Source: Candidatus Daviesbacteria bacterium (GTDB lineage Bacteria > Patescibacteriota > Microgenomatia > Daviesbacterales > UBA10151). From it: 64,000 nt of DNA. Shown here piece after piece: positions 4,062 to 49,590 of this stretch; position 1 is the first letter of the stretch; each line of letters begins with the position of its first letter. A program made the position numbers and the translations under genes. The DNA lies in the NCBI GenBank assembly GCA_016176405.1, contig JACOXG010000012.1:2217-66216 (forward strand), in the 5' to 3' direction. The notes under the pieces are model-generated. The model searched no databases and was not told the DNA's origin. It worked only from the letters and a program-made list of their open reading frames with translations.

Positions 4062-4535
4062 ATGCGTAGTGGTAAAGTAGAAAAAAAGGTACTTCCTTTG
4101 GACCCAATTTATAATTCCAGATTGGTCACTAGAGTAATTAATAAAGTGATGAGGGATGGTAAAAGGAGTATTGCTCAAAAATTAGTTTATATGGTTTTGG
4201 AGCAAATCAAGCAAACTAAACAAGATCCCATTGCTGTTTTGGAAAAAGCTATTTTGAATGTTTCCCCTAAAATGGAGGTCAGACCAAGAAGGGTGGGAGG
4301 AGCATCTTATCAGGTGCCATCTGAGGTGAGAGGTGATAGGAAAGAAGCTTTGGCTATTAGGTGGATTTTGGAGGGAGCCAAAAAAAGAGCCAATAGAGAG
4401 TTTCATACTTTTGATAAAAAGTTAATGGCAGAATTACTAGATGCAGCAAATAATACAGGAGCAGCTATCAAAAGAAGAGATGATATGCAAAAAGTAGCAA
4501 ATGCTAACCGTGCATTCAGTCATTTCCGCTGGTAA
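4062..4535 (+). CDS. rpsG: 30S ribosomal protein S7
   Basis: MRSGKVEKKVLPLDPIYNSRLVTRVINKVMRDGKRSIAQKLVY matches the S7 N-terminus. The ATG lies 1 nt after the rpsL stop. The longer ORF starting at 3936 overlaps rpsL in another frame and was rejected. Confidence 0.9.
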   Translation: MRSGKVEKKVLPLDPIYNSRLVTRVINKVMRDGKRSIAQKLVYMVLEQIKQTKQDPIAVLEKAILNVSPKMEVRPRRVGGASYQVPSEVRGDRKEALAIRWILEGAKKRANREFHTFDKKLMAELLDAANNTGAAIKRRDDMQKVANANRAFSHFRW

Positions 4536-4798: not shown

Positions 4799-4826
4799 CA
4801 GTACAACACTGTGCCACTATCATTTA

Positions 4827-4844
4827 AAATGATTCAAATCATTT
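4827..4844. promoter_or_regulatory. 18-bp inverted repeat AAATGATT-ca-AATCATTT (candidate operator), copy 1, overlapping the start codon of the YerC-like gene
   Basis: Two perfect 8-bp arms with a 2-bp spacer. The identical 28-mer ttaaaatgattcaaatcatttaaacaaa recurs at 5301-5328. Confidence 0.5.
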
Positions 4845-4850
4845 AAACAA

Positions 4851-5300
4851 ATGACACAGGTCTCAAGATACCCAATTTCCAAAGAGGTTTATGAAAGATG
4901 CTGGGAAATATTTGTAAAGACTTTAATAGGGATTCACAATGTCAAAGATGCTGAGATAGTTATTAATGATTTGCTAACCCCTACCGAACGGATCATGTTA
5001 GTAAAAAGATTAGCAACAGCATTACTTTTAATGCAGGGATATGAATATCGAGAAATTAGCAAAGTTTTAAGAGTCAGTCTGCCAACCATATCCGCAGTTA
5101 ACAGATCTTTAAGATATGGCAGTAATGGTTACAATAAAGCACTTTCTAAAATCTTAAAAGATGAACAGTTTGCAGAATTTCTTAATAAAATGATCCAAGG
5201 CATAATTGCTCTGCCAGCTCGAGGGGGGATAGGCTCGGGAACGTATAGGTATCTTAGACAAGAACTCCAGAAAAGGTCAAAAGACAGAAAAGCCTTCTAG
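4851..5300 (+). CDS. YerC/YecD (TrpR-like) family HTH DNA-binding protein
   Basis: LLTPTERIMLVKRLATALLLMQGYEYREISKVLRVSLPTISAVNRSL matches the Trp-repressor-like YerC family signature. The gene is bracketed by identical 28-bp repeats at 4824-4851 and 5301-5328. Confidence 0.6.
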   Translation: MTQVSRYPISKEVYERCWEIFVKTLIGIHNVKDAEIVINDLLTPTERIMLVKRLATALLLMQGYEYREISKVLRVSLPTISAVNRSLRYGSNGYNKALSKILKDEQFAEFLNKMIQGIIALPARGGIGSGTYRYLRQELQKRSKDRKAF

Positions 5301-5303
5301 TTA

Positions 5304-5321
5304 AAATGATTCAAATCATTT
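5304..5321. promoter_or_regulatory. 18-bp inverted repeat AAATGATT-ca-AATCATTT (candidate operator), copy 2, upstream of the histidine-phosphatase gene
   Basis: Identical to copy 1. It lies immediately after the YerC-like stop codon and 17 nt before the next ATG. Confidence 0.5.
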
Positions 5322-5338
5322 AAACAAAGTGAAAAAAA

Positions 5339-5878
5339 ATGATTGCCATAATATTTGAAGCGCATGGGACTTCTTTTGATAATGAGAATAATCTCTCTTC
5401 TGGACATTTTGATGTAGAACTATCCCCTTTAGGCATTAAACAAGCCAAAGAATTAGGAGAACGCTACAAAAATGAGCATTTTGAGGCTATTTTTGTGTCT
5501 GATTTACAAAGATCATATAAAACTGCAGAAATTGCTTTTGGAAATAAATTTCCTATTAGAAAAGATAAGAGACTTCGAGAATGTGATTACGGGGATTTAA
5601 CCAGACACCCAAGCAGTGAAGTGGAATCACTTAAAGTAAAGCATATTACAAAACCATTTCCAAATGGAGAATCTTATAAAGATTGTTTAAAAAGGATAAA
5701 GGACTTTTTAGATGAGTTAAGACAAAAATACCACGGCCGTGGGAAAAATGTTTTAATTATTGGTCACAGAGCAACTCAATATGGACTAGAACATTGGATA
5801 AATGGAATTGATATAAAAACTTTACTAACCACCCCCTTTAAATGGCAACCAGGTTGGAAGTATGAATTTGACTTTTAG
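5339..5878 (+). CDS. histidine phosphatase superfamily (phosphoglycerate-mutase-like) protein
   Basis: 179 aa. N-terminal IIFEAHGTS resembles the RHG motif, with E where the catalytic R is expected. A later IIGHRATQ histidine is present. Family assignment rests on motif resemblance only. Confidence 0.45.
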   Translation: MIAIIFEAHGTSFDNENNLSSGHFDVELSPLGIKQAKELGERYKNEHFEAIFVSDLQRSYKTAEIAFGNKFPIRKDKRLRECDYGDLTRHPSSEVESLKVKHITKPFPNGESYKDCLKRIKDFLDELRQKYHGRGKNVLIIGHRATQYGLEHWINGIDIKTLLTTPFKWQPGWKYEFDF

Positions 5879-5904
5879 GAGCAAAAAAATTAATATATAC
5901 TTCT

Positions 5905-5932
5905 GGCCTCCCAAATTCGAGGGAGGTTTTTT
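5905..5932 (+). terminator. Rho-independent terminator
   Basis: GGCCTCCC-aaattcga-GGGAGG followed by TTTTTT, directly after the phosphatase gene. Confidence 0.7.
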
Positions 5933-5953
5933 AAATTAAGGTAAAATTTAGAT

Positions 5954-6181
5954 ATGGACAAGAAATTGAGACAGGAAAAACTTAAAATGTGGAAGGAGAA
6001 TTTGGCAAAGCTGGAAAAAGAGCTGGAAGATGTCATGCTTAAAAAAGGAGAAGCAGCTCAGCAGGGAGATTTATCTGAAAATGCAGCCTATACCATGGCT
6101 GGGGAAGATGCAGAAACATATAGGGTACAGATAGAACAGGTGAAGAAAATTATTGGGGATTTAGAGAAAGGAGCAAATTAA
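5954..6181 (+). CDS. stand-alone GreA/GreB N-terminal coiled-coil domain protein (no FKBP-like C-terminal domain)
   Basis: 75 aa. LEKELEDV...GDLSENAAY...IEQVKKIIGDLE matches the GreA N-terminal coiled-coil signature (GDLxENAEY). An AGG-rich sequence lies upstream. The ORF ends after the coiled coil. Confidence 0.5.
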   Translation: MDKKLRQEKLKMWKENLAKLEKELEDVMLKKGEAAQQGDLSENAAYTMAGEDAETYRVQIEQVKKIIGDLEKGAN

Positions 6182-6256
6182 GAGATACGTAATACGTGAT
6201 AAGTGAGATGTTAGAAACTTATCTCATATCACATATCTCGTATCACAATTATCACC

Positions 6257-8368
6257 ATGGCAGTACTTAAGACTAAAAGAGACTTTCCCTTAGATAGAAT
6301 CCGCAACATGGGCATTATTGCTCACATTGATGCTGGAAAAACTACCACTACTGAGAGAATCCTTTTTTACACAGGTAGAACCTATAAAATTGGAGATATT
6401 GATGAGGGCACAACAGTCACAGATTGGATGGAGCAGGAAAGAGAAAGAGGAATTACTATTGTTTCTGCAGCCATTACCACTTTTTGGAAAGATACCAGAA
6501 TTAATTTGATTGATACCCCAGGTCATGTTGATTTTACAGCTGAGGTAGAAAGAAGTTTGCGTGTTTTGGATGGAGGAGTGATTGTTTTAGATGCCTCATC
6601 AGGAGTCCAATCTCAAACAGAAACTGTGTGGAGACAGGCCAATAAATATAAAGTACCACTTATTGCTTTTGCCAATAAAATGGATGTGGTAGGGGCAGAT
6701 TTTATGGGCACAATTAAATCTGCCAGGGATAAACTTGGTGCTAATGCTTTGGCCTATAACCTGCCTATTGGTAAAGAGAATGATTTTAAAGGAGTTGTAG
6801 ACCTTTTAACCCAGAAAGCTTTTATTTGGGAAGGGGATGAAACAGGAGCTAAATTTAGTGAGATAGAGATCCCCTCAGATATGGCTTCGCAAGTAAAAGA
6901 AGCCAGGGAAAAATTGGTTGAGGAAATTTCTGGCACAGATGATCAATTAATGGAAAAATTCTTGGGTGGACAGGAAATTTCCATAGAAGAGCTTAAAAAG
7001 GCTTTAAGAAAAGCAGTGATTGAGAATAAAATTGTGCCTGTTTTAGCAGGATCCTCTTTAAGAAATAAAGGTGTTCAACCAATGTTAGATTGCGTGGTGG
7101 AATATTTACCATCGCCTCAAGATATTGCTGAGGTAGTTGGCCAAAACCCTAAGACTTCTGAGCAAGAAACAAGAAAGGCTGATCCGGCTGCATCTTTGGC
7201 TGCCCTTTCTTTTAAAATTCAAGTTGATCCACATGTGGGAAAACTAACCTATATCAGAGTTTATTCAGGAACATTAAAGAGTGGTTCCTATGTTTACAAT
7301 GCCACCAAACAAATTAAAGAAAGAGTGGGCAGACTACTTTTAATGCATGCCAATGATAGGGAGGAAATTGAGGAGGCTTTTGCTGGTGAGATTGTGGCAG
7401 CAGTAGGTTTGAAAGATACTGTTACTGGGGACACTCTCTGTGATGAAAATGCGCCAATTATTTTGGAATCTATTACTTTTCCTGATCCGGTGATTTCTTT
7501 AGCCATTGAACCCAAAACAAAATCTGATCAGGAAAAATTGGGTTATGCTTTAAATAGATTATCTGAGGAAGATCCGACTTTTAGAGTCAAATCTGATGCC
7601 GAGACTGGGCAAACAATCATTGCTGGCATGGGTGAGCTGCAATTGGAAATTTTGGTGGAGCGGATGAGAAGAGAATTTAAGGTGGAGGCCAATGTTGGTC
7701 AACCCCAGGTGGCTTATAAAGAAACCATTACCCAAAATGCAGAGGGTGAAGGTAAATATATCAGACAGACTGGGGGAAGAGGACAATATGGTCACTGTTT
7801 GCTTCGAATTGAACCTTTACCTCGGGGACAGGGAAGAGAATTTGTCTCAGAAGTGGTTGGCGGTGCTATTCCCAGAGAATTTATTCCTCCAATTGAAAAA
7901 GGAGTGATTGAAAAAGAAGATACGGGAATTTTGGCTGGATATCCGGTGACTGATATAAAAGTAGTAGTTTATGATGGTTCTTTCCATGATGTTGATTCAT
8001 CAGAAATTGCTTTCAAAATTGCTGCTTCTTTAGGTTTATCAGAGGCTGCTAAAAAAGCAGAGTTAATACTTCTTGAGCCTATTATGAAGGTGGAGGTGAC
8101 TACTCCTGAGGATTTTATGGGAGATATTATTGGAGATTTGTCCTCAAAAAGGGCTCAGATTTTAGGGACAGAAAAAAGAGGAAATTACACAGTCATTTTA
8201 GCTTTAGTACCCTTGGCAGAAATGCATGGATATGCTACAGCTTTAAGATCAATGTCCGAAGGAAGAGCCTCATATTATATGGAAGCAGATCATTATGAAA
8301 CAGTGCCCCAAAATATCACTCAAAAAATAGTTGAGTCCTCAGGCTTTACAGGTAGAGTAGAAAGGTAA
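6257..8368 (+). CDS. fusA: elongation factor G
   Basis: 703 aa. [31 protein letters not shown] GTPase motifs and domains II-V are conserved. Confidence 0.95.
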
Positions 8369-8424
8369 GAGTTAACGCTTGCACTTTAACTGCGGCAATT
8401 ACTAAAGTTTTAGCCTCTAAAGGC

Positions 8425-9486
8425 ATGGCAGAGGAGAGAAGCGTTGATCAAATTGACAATGCTCCTGAGGAAAAAGCCCGCGGTATTACTATTAATATTT
8501 CTCACCAAGAATATGAAACACCATCTAGACATTATGCTCACATCGACATGCCAGGTCACGCAGATTACATCAAAAATATGATCACTGGTGCTGCTCAGAC
8601 TGATGGAGCAATTTTGGTGGTGTCTGCTCCAGATGGTCCCATGCCTCAAACCAGAGAACATCTTTTACTGGCTCGCCAAGTAGGAGTGCCAGCCATTGTG
8701 GTTTATCTCAATAAAATTGATCAGGTGTCTGATCCAGAGTTGATTGATTTAGTTGAGGAAGAAATTAGAGATTTACTAAAAAAATATGAATATGATCCGC
8801 AATCTCCTATTATTCGAGGTTCAGCTTTGAAAGCTTTGCAAGGTGATGCTGAGGCTGTCAAATCAATTGAGGAACTGATGGCCAAAGTGGATGAATGGAT
8901 TCCCACCCCAGTAAGGGATGTGGATAAGCCATTTTTGATGGCGGTAGAGGATGTTTTCTCAATCAAGGGTAGAGGAACAGTAGTCACTGGAAGAATTGAA
9001 AGAGGTAAGGTTAAAATTAATGAGGAAATAGAAATTGTGGGAATTAGACCTACCAAAAAGAGTGTGGTAACCGGAATTGAGATGTTTCATAAACTTTTGG
9101 ATGAAGGTCAGGCAGGAGATAATGCCGGAATTTTACTAAGAGGAATTGAAAAAGATGATGTGGAAAGAGGGCAAGTTTTGGCCAAACCTGGTTCAATTAC
9201 TCCCCACTCAGAGTTTGAAGCAGAAGTTTATGTGTTAAGTAAAGAAGAGGGTGGAAGACACACTCCATTTTTCAAAGGTTACAGACCACAATTTTATATT
9301 AGAACTACAGATGTGACTGGTGAGGTGCAATTGCCAGAAGGTGTGGAGATGGCCATGCCAGGAGATACTGTAAAGGTAGTGGGAAAATTAATTACCCCAG
9401 TGGCTATGGAAGAAGGATTAAGATTTGCTGTTAGAGAAGGTGGAAAAACAGTTGGAGCTGGAGTTATTACCAAGATAATAGCTTAA
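8425..9486 (+). CDS. tuf: elongation factor Tu, N-terminally truncated (G1/P-loop GHVDHGKT absent). Possible pseudogene or assembly artefact
   Basis: The frame upstream of the first ATG reads [47 protein letters not shown]. Homology begins at EF-Tu residue ~26, downstream of the P-loop. No in-frame start or GHVDHGKT occurs in any frame between the fusA stop (8368) and 8425. The remainder (DxPGHADY, NKID, domains II-III) is intact. Confidence 0.85.
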
Positions 9487-9512: not shown

Positions 9513-9821
9513 ATGCCAAGAGGGAGAATTCGTGTCAAACTGAAAAGTTATGATCACCGAGTGCTGGATAGCACTTGTGAATCCCTTTTGGATACCGCCC
9601 TTAGAACCGGTGCTAAAATTGTTGGTCCCATTCCCCTTCCTACTAAAATTGAAAGAATTACAGTTTTAAGATCTCCTCATACAGATAAAAATTCCAGAGA
9701 AGCTTTTGAAATTAAAACTCACAAAAGATTGGTAGATATTGTTGAACCCACCCAAAAAACCATCGATTCCCTAATGCATTTAGAAATCCCAGCAGGAGTT
9801 GATATTGAAGTTAAGATGTAG
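9513..9821 (+). CDS. rpsJ: 30S ribosomal protein S10
   Basis: [19 protein letters not shown]...[38 protein letters not shown] is canonical S10. Confidence 0.93.
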
Positions 9822-32822: not shown

Positions 32823-32894
32823 CGGGGATTAGTTCATCGGTAGAACGCTCGTATGGGGTACGAGAAGTAAAGAGTTCAATTCTCTTATCCCCGA
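32823..32894 (+). tRNA. tRNA-Pro (anticodon GGG), no encoded CCA
   Basis: Manual fold. Acceptor CGGGGAT/ATCCCCG (7 bp). U8. D stem GTTC/GAAC. Anticodon stem CTCGT/ACGAG with loop aT-GGG-Gt. T stem AAGAG/CTCTT with loop TTCAATT. Discriminator A. Confidence 0.7.
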
Positions 32895-33017
32895 CTATAG
32901 GATCTTAAGAGGATAATTCTCTACCCTATCTTTATAACTTATGATGTATGGATACATCCAAACAAGAAGCTATTTTGGGGTATTGACATTCGGTAAATAT
33001 ATGGTTATAACACTTGT

Positions 33018-41715: not shown

Positions 41716-41717
41716 AA

Positions 41718-42500
41718 ATGAAAAAATATTTTTTAGTCTGGTTAAAATTTGCCATCTTAGGTTTTCAAACTCAACTAGCTTTGCCTTCTGCCCTATTTAT
41801 TTTTCTTTTGGGAAAATTGTTAAGATTTTCAGTTTTCACCTTTTTTATAATTATTTTGGTTGATAAAACAAAGGCTCTAGCAGGCTATAATTTGGATCAA
41901 ACAATTTTTTTCTTTTTAAGTTTTAATTTAATAGATACTGTTTCTCAGCTTTTATTTAGAGAGGTTTATCGTTTTAGACAGGCCGTGGTCTTGGGAAATT
42001 TTGACTTTTACTTAATTAAACCAATCCATCCACTTTTTAGGGCTTTGATGGGAGGACCTGATTTAATTGATTTTATAACATTAATTCCTTTAGTTTTGGC
42101 AACTATTGTTTTCATGAATCGTCTCGAAATAAATAATTTGTTGAGTATCATGATTTATATTTTGCTTTTGATATCTGGCTTTATTATTGCCCTAGCATTT
42201 CATATCTTGGTTTTAGCACTAGCTGTTATCACCACAGAAATTGATCATGCTATTATGATGTATCGAGATGTGGTAGGAATGGGAAGATTTCCAATCGATA
42301 TTTATAGAGAACCCTTAAGGGGGTTTTTAACTTTTATTATTCCGGTTGGGATCATGATGAGTTTTCCTACAAAAGCCATCTTGGGTTTATTGTCTTGGCA
42401 GGCCATTGTTTATGCTTTGATTTTTTCTCTAATAATGCTCTATTTATCATTTAAAGTTTGGGATTATTCATTAAAACAATATTCATCTGCCTCTTCTTAA
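41718..42500 (+). CDS. ABC-2 type transporter permease (second subunit)
   Basis: Polytopic. The ATG lies 2 nt after the previous stop. The track start at 41637 overlaps the upstream permease. Confidence 0.7.
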   Translation: MKKYFLVWLKFAILGFQTQLALPSALFIFLLGKLLRFSVFTFFIIILVDKTKALAGYNLDQTIFFFLSFNLIDTVSQLLFREVYRFRQAVVLGNFDFYLIKPIHPLFRALMGGPDLIDFITLIPLVLATIVFMNRLEINNLLSIMIYILLLISGFIIALAFHILVLALAVITTEIDHAIMMYRDVVGMGRFPIDIYREPLRGFLTFIIPVGIMMSFPTKAILGLLSWQAIVYALIFSLIMLYLSFKVWDYSLKQYSSASS

Positions 42501-49206: not shown

Positions 49207-49565
49207 GCCTAGGAAGAAGGATGATCACCCCGCACCAATCTGGTGCGGGGAGGAAAGTCCAGACAGCACAGGGCAGGGTGGTTCGGGTAACCGGACTCGG
49301 GTAACCGCAAGTAAAGAGTAACAGAGACGATCTGGGTGACGCCAGGTGAAACGACCAAGTGACTGGGTATTCGATAAGCAAAGGGCTATCAGTCCTGAGC
49401 GAAGTCGAAGGACAATCCTCCCCGCTGCAATCCTAGAAACAATCGAGCTGCTCGCTCAATGATTGAAGTCAGGAGCAGTCGCCTAAGGCGACTCAGGATG
49501 ACAAAAATCATACTGAAGATAAATGATCATCTAGAAACAGAATCTGGCTTACTTTTTTCCTAGGC
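49207..49565 (+). ncRNA. rnpB: RNase P RNA (bacterial type A-like)
   Basis: P1 GCCTAGGAAG...CTTTTTTCCTAGGC. P3 CCCCGCACC-aatc-GGTGCGGGG. P4 GGAAAGTCC. ACAGGGCAGGGTG. ...ACAGAATCTGGCTTAC 3' P4 strand. Contains a ~130-nt segment with family-1-like arms. Confidence 0.75.
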
Positions 49566-49590
49566 AATTTTTTTGCCGACGGAAAAAAGC

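What the first reader, a model, noticed from the sequence alone, without database searches (positions are those of the whole stretch)
8356..8470. tuf lacks its N-terminus including the GTP-binding P-loop
EF-Tu homology begins abruptly at ...[18 protein letters not shown], equivalent to residue ~26 of canonical EF-Tu. A stop codon lies only 11 codons upstream, and no ATG/GTG/TTG occurs before Met-8425. The G1 motif GHVDHGKT and the ~25 residues before it are not encoded in any frame between the fusA stop (8368) and the tuf body. The local sequence gttaacg-cttgcac-tttaact looks like canonical gttaacg[...VGTIGHVDHGKTT...]tttaact with ~33+ nt excised. A P-loop-less EF-Tu cannot bind GTP. This is either a collapsed or mis-assembled region, a recent deletion producing a pseudogene with a second intact tuf elsewhere, or an engineered lesion.
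Basis: seen in the sequence. Interest (0 to 1): 0.8.

Follow-up and report, generated by a model that had tools for sequence, protein, structure and literature searches.

The report
Truncated tuf gene in a MAG
The EF-Tu gene in this uncultured groundwater bacterium's draft genome really does lack its start and its GTP-binding loop, but the rest of the gene is flawless, so this is most likely a local assembly error (or a very recent deletion) and not new biology.

Summary
fusA ends at 8368. Fourteen bases later, EF-Tu homology starts at codon 28 (TLTAAIT, 8383). The tuf frame has no ATG/GTG/TTG before 8425, and nothing in the 64-kb window encodes GHVDHGKT or a second tuf.

The lesion was not engineered into the window. 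The 362-aa product read from the ATT codon at 8398 is exactly GenBank MBI2020299.1 "elongation factor Tu". It sits between FusA MBI2020298.1 and S10 MBI2020300.1 on a 73,713-bp Candidatus Daviesbacteria MAG contig.

Close relatives all have 392–394-aa EF-Tu behind a conserved leader. The window keeps only the first box of that leader (GCTTGCA). The simplest reading is one deletion of about 150–181 nt, from that box to codon 27.

The remaining 367 codons show no decay. dN/dS is about 0.04, and no highly conserved column deviates. tuf is encoded at one place on a 1.1-Mb relative contig.

The site is a strain-variable integration hotspot in an uncurated short-read MAG. Best explanation: a local assembly error or a non-representative allele (about 0.6). 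Main rival: a real recent deletion with an unseen second tuf (about 0.25). Interest is low.

The parts
6257..8368 (+). fusA (EF-G), complete, 703 aa; identical to GenBank MBI2020298.1
   Evidence: ORF and Pfam domains. 703/703 identity to P0121. The C-terminal tail is homologous to relatives up to the stop codon.
8353..8355 (+). TAG stop in the tuf reading frame, lying inside fusA; it closes the tuf frame upstream
   Evidence: Three-frame translation.
8369..8382 (+). 14-nt fusA-tuf spacer, GAGTTAACGCTTGC; all that remains of a spacer that is 0.9-3.3 kb in relatives
   Evidence: Sequence. Relatives' spacers.
8377..8383 (+). GCTTGCA, a remnant of the conserved -35-like box (CTTGCAT) of the tuf leader; proposed left edge of the deletion (junction at 8382/8383-8384, with CA possibly shared as microhomology)
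   Evidence: The box is present 73-104 nt upstream of the tuf ATG in 6 of 7 relatives, and the 7-mer is identical in L002.
8383..9486 (+). tuf remnant, codon 28 (TLTAAIT...) to the stop; 367 codons with domains G (minus beta1 and the P-loop), 2 and 3
   Evidence: tblastn, Pfam and PDB alignments. dN/dS about 0.04. No deviation at columns that are >=98% conserved.
8398..9486 (+). CDS as annotated in GenBank: ATT start, 362 aa, MBI2020299.1 'elongation factor Tu'
   Evidence: Exact-sequence lookup.
8425..9486 (+). Longest ORF with a canonical start (ATG, 353 aa); this product is not in any public collection
9513..9821 (+). rpsJ (S10), intact; identical to MBI2020300.1; shows the synteny fusA-tuf-rpsJ

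Best explanation
The contig carries a single deletion of about 150-181 nt. It runs from just inside the conserved -35-like box of tuf's own leader to codon 27 of tuf. It removes the -10 element, the leader hairpin, the start codon, strand beta1 and the P-loop (G1). As written, the gene cannot produce a GTP-binding EF-Tu. GenBank's 362-aa 'elongation factor Tu' with an ATT start is an annotation rescue and not evidence of function. The other 367 codons are untouched, tuf is essential, and relatives encode it at one place. The site is also a strain-variable integration hotspot in an uncurated short-read MAG. For these reasons the lesion most likely does not represent the living organism's genome. 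It is probably a local assembly or consensus error, or a minority deletion allele that the assembler followed, and the real population probably carries an intact tuf here. What is shown: the truncation, its presence in the deposited record, the intact state of relatives, and the absence of decay. What is inferred: the exact breakpoints and the artefactual origin.
For: The truncation and missing G1 are shown. It is in the deposit: the ATT-start product equals MBI2020299.1, and accessions run consecutively (295-300, then 304 and 305) along the 73,713-bp contig. All listed close homologs are 392-394 aa or longer apart from two start-call or contig-end cases, and all carry the P-loop. There is no decay: window-versus-relative dN/dS is 0.02-0.05, the same as between intact relatives, and all 13 deviations at >=98%-conserved columns lie in the 9 junction residues, with none afterwards. 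tuf is encoded at a single place on a 1.1-Mb Daviesbacteria contig, and L002's tuf is also in the tuf-rpsJ context. The spacer is a hotspot: cargo differs in every relative and is bracketed by direct repeats of the fusA 3' end. Contigs of relatives and of this same strain break around here (L086 starts 97 nt upstream of tuf; the Logan contigs all end about 195 nt into fusA). The likely source study used MEGAHIT plus IDBA-UD scaffolding, describes no local-error curation, and reports about 87-88 Daviesbacteria genomes. Chen et al. 2020 (PMC7111523) report 13 local assembly errors in one 1.13-Mb CPR genome and warn that such errors put incomplete genes into databases.
Against: No reads could be examined, so the artefact is inferred and not shown. 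There are no Ns or scaffold gap at the junction. The two flanks share only about 2-6 nt (CA, or CAYTTT if the ancestor resembled the relatives). A de Bruijn assembler with k>=21 should not join them without read support, whereas short microhomology is typical of real deletions. The contig runs uninterrupted through the junction for tens of kb, which suggests the deletion path was dominant or unique in the assembly graph. The link to He et al. 2021 rests on accession neighbourhood and run numbers; it is not an explicit table entry (one search found no SRR match).
Confidence: 0.6

Rival explanations
1. The deletion is real, recent and dominant. This str-operon tuf is a fresh pseudogene, perhaps created by imprecise loss of an integrated element at the fusA-tuf hotspot through microhomology. 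The cell lives on a second, intact tuf elsewhere in the genome.
For: The junction sits in a contiguous contig with no Ns. There may be CA/CAYTTT microhomology at the breakpoints. Unlike all six relatives where the spacer is visible, the window has no island between fusA and tuf, which is consistent with a deletion that removed the island and overshot. Many bacteria do carry tufA and tufB (established knowledge).
Against: There is no second tuf in the 64 kb. tuf is encoded at one place on a 1.1-Mb Daviesbacteria contig, and each large contig appears only once among the EF-Tu hits. The remnant shows no decay, so a recent gain of a second copy and a very recent deletion would both be needed. The other EF-Tu with a nearby accession (MBI2019579.1) sits with an 86%-identical FusA and lies outside the accession range inferred for this MAG.
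Confidence: 0.25
2. One reading: GTTAAC (8371-8376) is codons V14-N15 of tuf, and a short in-frame excision of about 30-33 nt removed only the P-loop. A separate event removed codons 1-13 and everything upstream.
For: MAFFT places a clean 30-nt gap and aligns GTTAACGCTTG with GTTAATATTGG. GTTAAC is in frame with tuf.
Against: It needs two deletions plus 4 of 6 bases changed in the highly conserved codons I16 and G17, whereas the other 367 codons have no change at conserved columns. The fusA stop lies 2 nt before GTTAAC, so no N-terminus could exist in any case. GCTTGCA is better explained as the conserved leader box. An in-frame GTTAAY arising by chance in a 14-nt AT-rich spacer is about as improbable as a chance CTTGCA, so one of the two matches must be coincidental, and parsimony favours a single deletion.
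Confidence: 0.08
3. The truncated protein is made (from AUU 8398, as annotated in GenBank, or from AUG 8425 by reinitiation after the fusA stop) and has a GTP-independent function.
For: It would be co-transcribed with fusA, since no terminator follows fusA. The reading frame is intact. GenBank annotates it as a normal CDS.
Against: Strand beta1 and G1 are missing. The P-loop Lys and Thr bind the phosphates and Mg2+ (established knowledge of P-loop GTPases), so the G domain should neither bind nucleotide nor fold normally. The body is conserved exactly like canonical EF-Tu, with no sign of a new function. The 353-aa and 362-aa forms occur nowhere else in about 15 billion proteins apart from this one record.
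Confidence: 0.03
4. The lesion was introduced into this window artificially (an engineered or planted deletion).
For: None beyond the abruptness of the junction.
Against: The deposited GenBank protein MBI2020299.1 equals the ATT-8398 translation of the window exactly. It lies between FusA ..298 and S10 ..300 on the same contig. Twelve full-length reconstructions are not on record.
Confidence: 0.01

Closest known systems
Canonical bacterial tuf (tufA) in the str operon, fusA-tuf-rpsJ
   Same: Same synteny. 69% identity to E. coli EF-Tu over residues 27-394 and 95% to the closest Daviesbacteria EF-Tu. Domains 2 and 3 and motifs G2-G5 are intact.
   Different: It lacks the promoter -10 element, the leader, the start codon, residues 1-27, strand beta1 and G1 (GHVDHGKT).
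Local assembly errors in uncurated metagenome-assembled genomes (Chen et al. 2020, Genome Res, PMC7111523)
   Same: A short-read CPR MAG in a strain-rich sample, with an incomplete protein-coding gene passed into a public database. The reported rate of 13 errors per 1.13 Mb makes about one per 64 kb unsurprising.
   Different: The defining criterion, consensus sequence lacking perfect support from any read, could not be tested here. There are no Ns and no long shared k-mer at the junction.
tufA/tufB duplicate pairs in which one copy is dispensable (for example E. coli and Salmonella; from my own knowledge)
   Same: Would explain how a truncated str-operon tuf could be tolerated.
   Different: No second copy was seen in the window or in relatives. 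A 1.1-Mb Daviesbacteria contig encodes EF-Tu at one place.
Genes with an AUU start codon, such as infC (from my own knowledge)
   Same: GenBank's CDS for this gene starts at ATT 8398.
   Different: Here ATT is just the Ile codon of the conserved TLTAAIT helix, present in all homologs. Nothing marks it as a start, and the product would still lack the P-loop.

Membership tests
EF-Tu (translational GTPase; Pfam GTP_EFTU + GTP_EFTU_D2 + GTP_EFTU_D3) | G1 / P-loop GxxxxGK[ST] (GHVDHGKT) | tested here: not met
   Absent from the product and from all six frames near the gene. The Pfam match starts at profile position 18 of 188.
EF-Tu (translational GTPase; Pfam GTP_EFTU + GTP_EFTU_D2 + GTP_EFTU_D3) | G2 (RGITI), G3 (DxPGH), G4 (NKxD), G5 (SAL) | tested here: met
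   RGITI, DMPGH, NKID and GSAL are all present.
EF-Tu (translational GTPase; Pfam GTP_EFTU + GTP_EFTU_D2 + GTP_EFTU_D3) | Domains 2 and 3 complete | tested here: met
   D2 covers profile positions 1-73 of 73 and D3 covers 1-105 of 106.
EF-Tu (translational GTPase; Pfam GTP_EFTU + GTP_EFTU_D2 + GTP_EFTU_D3) | Complete ORF with a canonical start and the N-terminal ~27 residues | tested here: not met
   No ATG/GTG/TTG between TAG 8353 and ATG 8425. Homology starts at codon 28.
EF-Tu (translational GTPase; Pfam GTP_EFTU + GTP_EFTU_D2 + GTP_EFTU_D3) | Orthologous position fusA-tuf-rpsJ | tested here: met
   Window. Relatives L001, L083, L087 and L092.
Decaying pseudogene | Frameshifts or internal stops in the remaining body | tested here: not met
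   The frame is open from 8356 to 9486.
Decaying pseudogene | Relaxed selection (raised dN/dS, substitutions at invariant sites) | tested here: not met
   dN/dS is 0.02-0.05, as between intact relatives. No deviations at >=98%-conserved columns after the junction.
Decaying pseudogene | A functional paralog elsewhere in the genome | not testable with these tools
   Only 64 kb of the genome is available and the source contig cannot be fetched. Relatives show tuf at a single place.
Local assembly error in a MAG (Chen et al. 2020) | Consensus sequence at the site lacks perfect support from any read | not testable with these tools
   There is no access to reads. Runs that contain the strain are identified (SRR12113420, SRR12113424 and SRR12113430).
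Local assembly error in a MAG (Chen et al. 2020) | Uncurated short-read assembly from a strain-rich community | tested here: inconclusive
   The likely source study used MEGAHIT plus IDBA-UD scaffolding, describes no local-error curation, and reports about 87-88 Daviesbacteria genomes. The link between this MAG and that study is inferred.
Scaffold-gap artefact | Run of Ns at the join | tested here: not met
   The window contains no N.
Integrated element at the fusA 3' end (as in relatives) | Cargo flanked by a direct repeat of the fusA 3' end | tested here: not met
   Present in L001, L083 and L087/L088. The window has no such repeat and no cargo.

The most novel reading that the evidence does not exclude
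The deletion is real and dominant in this Daviesbacteria population. On that reading, an ultra-small CPR bacterium has lost the P-loop of its only str-operon tuf, probably through microhomology-mediated loss of an integrated island at the fusA 3'-end hotspot that overshot into tuf. It would then survive on an unlinked second tuf, which has not been seen in this clade. Much less likely, it would use a P-loop-less EF-Tu made by reinitiation after fusA.
Probability: 0.15. Interest if true: 0.45.

Novelty: not a real feature. Interest (0 to 1): 0.15.

Why it matters
The main value is as a data-quality flag. A public GenBank protein (MBI2020299.1, 'elongation factor Tu', 362 aa, ATT start) is a truncated EF-Tu without a P-loop. 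It should be marked as a pseudogene or assembly error, because tuf is widely used as a phylogenetic and completeness marker. If the deletion were real, it would mean a second tuf in a clade where only one is seen, and it would record an island-loss event damaging an essential gene. The more reusable biological observation is the side finding: in Daviesbacteria the last 24-49 nt of fusA behave as an attachment site, and the fusA-tuf spacer is a cargo hotspot holding toxin-antitoxin pairs, a helicase and a Band_7 gene.

Tried and rejected
- **Source contig.** Exact-product lookups for FusA, the 353-aa Tu, S10 and P0121 found nothing in the contig index. The source contig is simply not retrievable there. 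The protein-cluster lookup did identify it.
- **Exact DNA pattern.** A 27-nt pattern from the fusA end had no hits in genome contigs or metagenome contigs.
- **Full-length reconstructions.** Twelve reconstructions (relatives' N-termini joined to the window body) were looked up to test whether the deposit holds an intact tuf. None is on record. The ATT-start truncated form is.
- **Dispersed second tuf.** L002 at first looked like a tuf outside the operon. This was rejected because its downstream ORF is S10, cut by the contig end.
- **Repeat collapse through a partial tuf duplicate.** No relative has a tuf fragment in the spacer, only repeats of the fusA end, so the idea is unsupported.
- **fusA-tuf fusion by -1 frameshift.** The tuf frame is -1 relative to fusA and is open from 8356. 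There is no slippery X XXY YYZ heptamer in 8356-8368 (G-AGT-AGA-AAG-G), and the product would still lack the P-loop, so this was rejected.
- **Leader hairpin covariation.** The 5-bp core is invariant, so the test is uninformative.
- **N-terminal segment search.** A search with only the tuf N-proximal 130 aa, looking for same-strain fragments from independent assemblies, returned nothing above 94% identity.
- **Promoter and terminator scan.** It found nothing between fusA and tuf, as expected for a 14-nt spacer.
Full report
**1. The observation**

fusA (6257-8368, 703 aa, all EF-G domains) ends with TAA at 8366-8368. Its C-terminal tail [11 protein letters not shown] is homologous to relatives up to the stop codon ([11 protein letters not shown] in L001), so fusA is intact.

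The tuf frame is closed by TAG at 8353-8355, inside fusA. It then reads [24 protein letters not shown] with no ATG, GTG or TTG before ATG 8425.
- E. coli EF-Tu residues 27-394 align to 8383-9483 at 69% identity.
- Pfam GTP_EFTU matches from profile position 18 of 188, and domains 2 and 3 are complete.
- Solved EF-Tu chains align from about residue 24-25.
- G1 is absent, while G2 (RGITI), G3 (DMPGH), G4 (NKID) and G5 (GSAL) are present.
- Nowhere in the 64 kb is there a second tuf or an N-terminal fragment.

The in-frame stop is 9 codons upstream of TLT, not 11.

**2. Where the sequence comes from, and whether the lesion is in the public record**

The closest EF-Tu proteins are from Candidatus Daviesbacteria (Patescibacteria/CPR). 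They are up to 95% identical, almost all are 392-394 aa, and all carry MAD..KPHVN.GTMGHVDHGKTT.

The window's FusA is 703/703 identical to GenBank MBI2020298.1 on a 73,713-bp contig. S10 is MBI2020300.1 on the same contig. The upstream genes are MBI2020295-297 (locus tags HYS94_02635 and HYS94_02645), and L2 and S19 are ..304 and ..305. Accessions are therefore consecutive along the contig, and exactly one lies between FusA and S10.

That protein is the window's own truncated gene. 'M' plus the translation of 8401-9483, that is a start at the ATT codon 8398, gives 362 aa identical to MBI2020299.1 'elongation factor Tu'. The 353-aa product from ATG 8425 and twelve full-length reconstructions are not on record.

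So the truncation is in the deposited MAG. NCBI's pipeline worked around the missing start with a rare ATT codon, and the 'engineered lesion' reading is refuted.

**3. Anatomy of the lesion**

Eight loci from relatives were fetched. In 6 of 7 distinct relatives tuf is preceded by the same leader:
- a CTTGCAT box;
- 17 nt;
- a TGTATATT-type element;
- a CCAGC...GCTGG hairpin followed by a T-run;
- the ATG, 73-104 nt downstream of the box.

The window's 14-nt spacer GAGTTAACGCTTGC, plus the next base A, contains GCTTGCA. This is the identical 7-mer found in the closest relative, L002, and it is followed directly by CTTTAACTGCGG, which is codons 28 onward.

One deletion from inside the box to codon 27 accounts for everything. 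Its length would be 150-181 nt on the relatives' coordinates, possibly with CA or CAYTTT microhomology at the breakpoints.

MAFFT also produces this alignment. It needs a second deletion for codons 1-13 and the leader, plus four substitutions in two highly conserved codons. Either motif match could be chance, at roughly 10^-3 each before allowing for post-hoc choice. Parsimony favours the single deletion.

**4. State of the rest of the gene**

dN/dS between the window's tuf and relatives is 0.02-0.05, the same as between intact relatives. dS is above 1, so only a short recent period of relaxed selection could be hidden.

Against 133 homologs, the window deviates at 13 columns that are >=98% conserved. 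All 13 lie in the 9 junction residues, and none lies after TLTAAIT. There are no frameshifts or stops.

The lesion is therefore either extremely recent or not biological.

**5. Context**

In every relative where the spacer is visible, fusA and tuf are separated by 0.9-3.3 kb of differing cargo:
- a 118-aa ORF (L001);
- a 176-aa ORF, a PhdYeFM/ParE pair and a 390-aa ORF (L083);
- a DEAD/ResIII helicase, an antitoxin and a DUF218 protein (L087);
- a Band_7 protein (L092);
- ParE and a 174-aa ORF (L085);
- a PhdYeFM/ParE pair and a DUF5674 protein (L002).

In L001, L083 and L087/L088 the cargo is bracketed by a 24-32-nt direct repeat of the fusA 3' end; in L083 the whole 49-nt tail is duplicated with divergence. 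This is the signature of site-specific integration. The window has no cargo and no repeat.

Assemblies fragment around this locus. L086 begins 97 nt upstream of tuf. Three independent Logan assemblies of this very strain (SRR12113420, SRR12113424 and SRR12113430) are 100% identical to window 4821-6454, and all stop about 195 nt into fusA.

tuf is encoded at a single place on a 1.1-Mb Daviesbacteria contig. L002's tuf, which at first looked dispersed, is followed by S10. Nothing in the clade points to a second tuf.

**6. Explanation**

As written, the gene cannot give a functional EF-Tu. Strand beta1 and the P-loop are gone, and the P-loop's Lys and Thr bind the phosphates and Mg2+ (established knowledge of P-loop GTPases). 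The gene's own -10 element, leader and start codon are gone as well.

The gene would still be transcribed with fusA, since no terminator follows fusA. Ribosomes could reinitiate at AUU 8398 or AUG 8425, but the product would be inert.

I consider a local assembly or consensus error, or a minority deletion allele followed by the assembler, the most likely origin (about 0.6), for these reasons:
- The gene is essential and single-copy in relatives, and the remnant is flawless.
- The site is hypervariable between strains.
- The likely source study (He et al. 2021, PMC7906910) used MEGAHIT with IDBA-UD scaffolding, describes no local-error curation, and reports about 87-88 Daviesbacteria genomes.
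- Chen et al. 2020 (PMC7111523) report 13 local assembly errors in one 1.13-Mb CPR genome and note that such errors put incomplete genes into databases.

Against this:
- There are no Ns at the junction.
- The flanks share no k-mer long enough for a false join.
- The contig runs uninterrupted through the site.
- Short microhomology is typical of real deletions.

These points keep a real, recent deletion with an unseen second tuf at about 0.25. A functional P-loop-less EF-Tu is very unlikely (about 0.03).

**7. Comparison with what is known, and novelty**

By homology and synteny the locus is the orthologous str-operon tuf, but it fails the defining G1 and N-terminus tests. It matches what is described as a local assembly error in MAGs, although the defining criterion of missing read support could not be tested.

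It is already annotated in GenBank, though misleadingly. Nothing suggests a new kind of system, and interest is low.

The fusA 3'-end attachment site and the fusA-tuf cargo hotspot in Daviesbacteria are the more interesting by-products.

**8. What would decide it**

Map the reads of the source sample, or of SRR12113420, SRR12113424 and SRR12113430, across 8360-8400 and against a reconstructed intact allele. Also search the full assembly and the reads for GHVDHGKT followed by [19 protein letters not shown].

Noticed in passing
L001 4069-4100 / 4479-4510; L083 734-782 / 2049-2097; L087 and L088 141-170 / 2438-2467: In three independent Daviesbacteria relatives, the cargo inserted after fusA is bracketed by a 24-32-nt direct repeat of the fusA 3' end. 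In L083 the whole 49-nt tail is duplicated with divergence. The fusA 3' end therefore behaves as an attachment site for integrative elements.
   Followed up: partly
fusA-tuf spacers of L001, L002, L083, L085, L087 and L092: The fusA-tuf spacer is a cargo hotspot with different content in every relative: PhdYeFM/ParE toxin-antitoxin pairs, a DEAD/ResIII helicase, DUF218, DUF5674, Band_7 and hypothetical ORFs, 0.9-3.3 kb in all. The window has only 14 nt.
   Followed up: partly
L001 4921-5000, L002 1841-1927, L085 1351-1423, L086 24-97, L092 3921-4000, L083 3397-3500: A conserved tuf leader: a CTTGCAT box, 17 nt, a TGTATATT-type element, then an invariant CCAGC/GCTGG hairpin followed by a T-run just upstream of the ATG. 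A terminator-like hairpin between a promoter-like site and the start codon suggests an attenuator or processing site. The stem never varies, so covariation could not be tested.
   Followed up: partly
window 4824-4851 and 5301-5328: An exact 28-nt direct repeat, TTAAAATGATTCAAATCATTTAAACAAA, which contains a palindrome (AAATGATT..AATCATTT). It flanks the 149-aa Trp_repressor-like gene (4851-5300) and sits just upstream of both that gene and the 179-aa histidine phosphatase gene. It could be a shared operator or an insertion footprint.
   Followed up: no
L083 5264-6057; L085 3213-5005; L086 2230-2626; L002 3203-3538: Relatives also carry small insertions at other boundaries of this region. Between rpsJ and rplC there is a GIY-YIG protein (L083), an HSP70-like protein with a 110-aa ORF (L085) and a DUF2283 protein (L086). 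Between tuf and rpsJ there is a 111-aa ORF (L002). The whole str/S10 region is riddled with accessory genes in this clade.
   Followed up: no
window 5954-6181: A 75-aa protein with only the GreA/GreB N-terminal coiled-coil domain lies immediately upstream of fusA. It is conserved at the same position in L001 and L092, and is annotated 'hypothetical' in GenBank (MBI2020297.1).
   Followed up: no
window 49209-49567 (+); window 32823-32895 (+); window 41716-42496: RNase P RNA (class A, 116.6 bits) and a single tRNA-Pro(GGG). There is also a 781-nt stretch with no ORF of 60 aa or more and no Rfam or tRNA hit.
   Followed up: no
window 6451-6454 (ends of L089, L090 and L091): Three independent Logan assemblies of this strain all end at the same point about 195 nt into fusA, in the conserved G-domain region. 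This suggests that k-mers shared with co-occurring Daviesbacteria break assemblies of this operon.
   Followed up: partly
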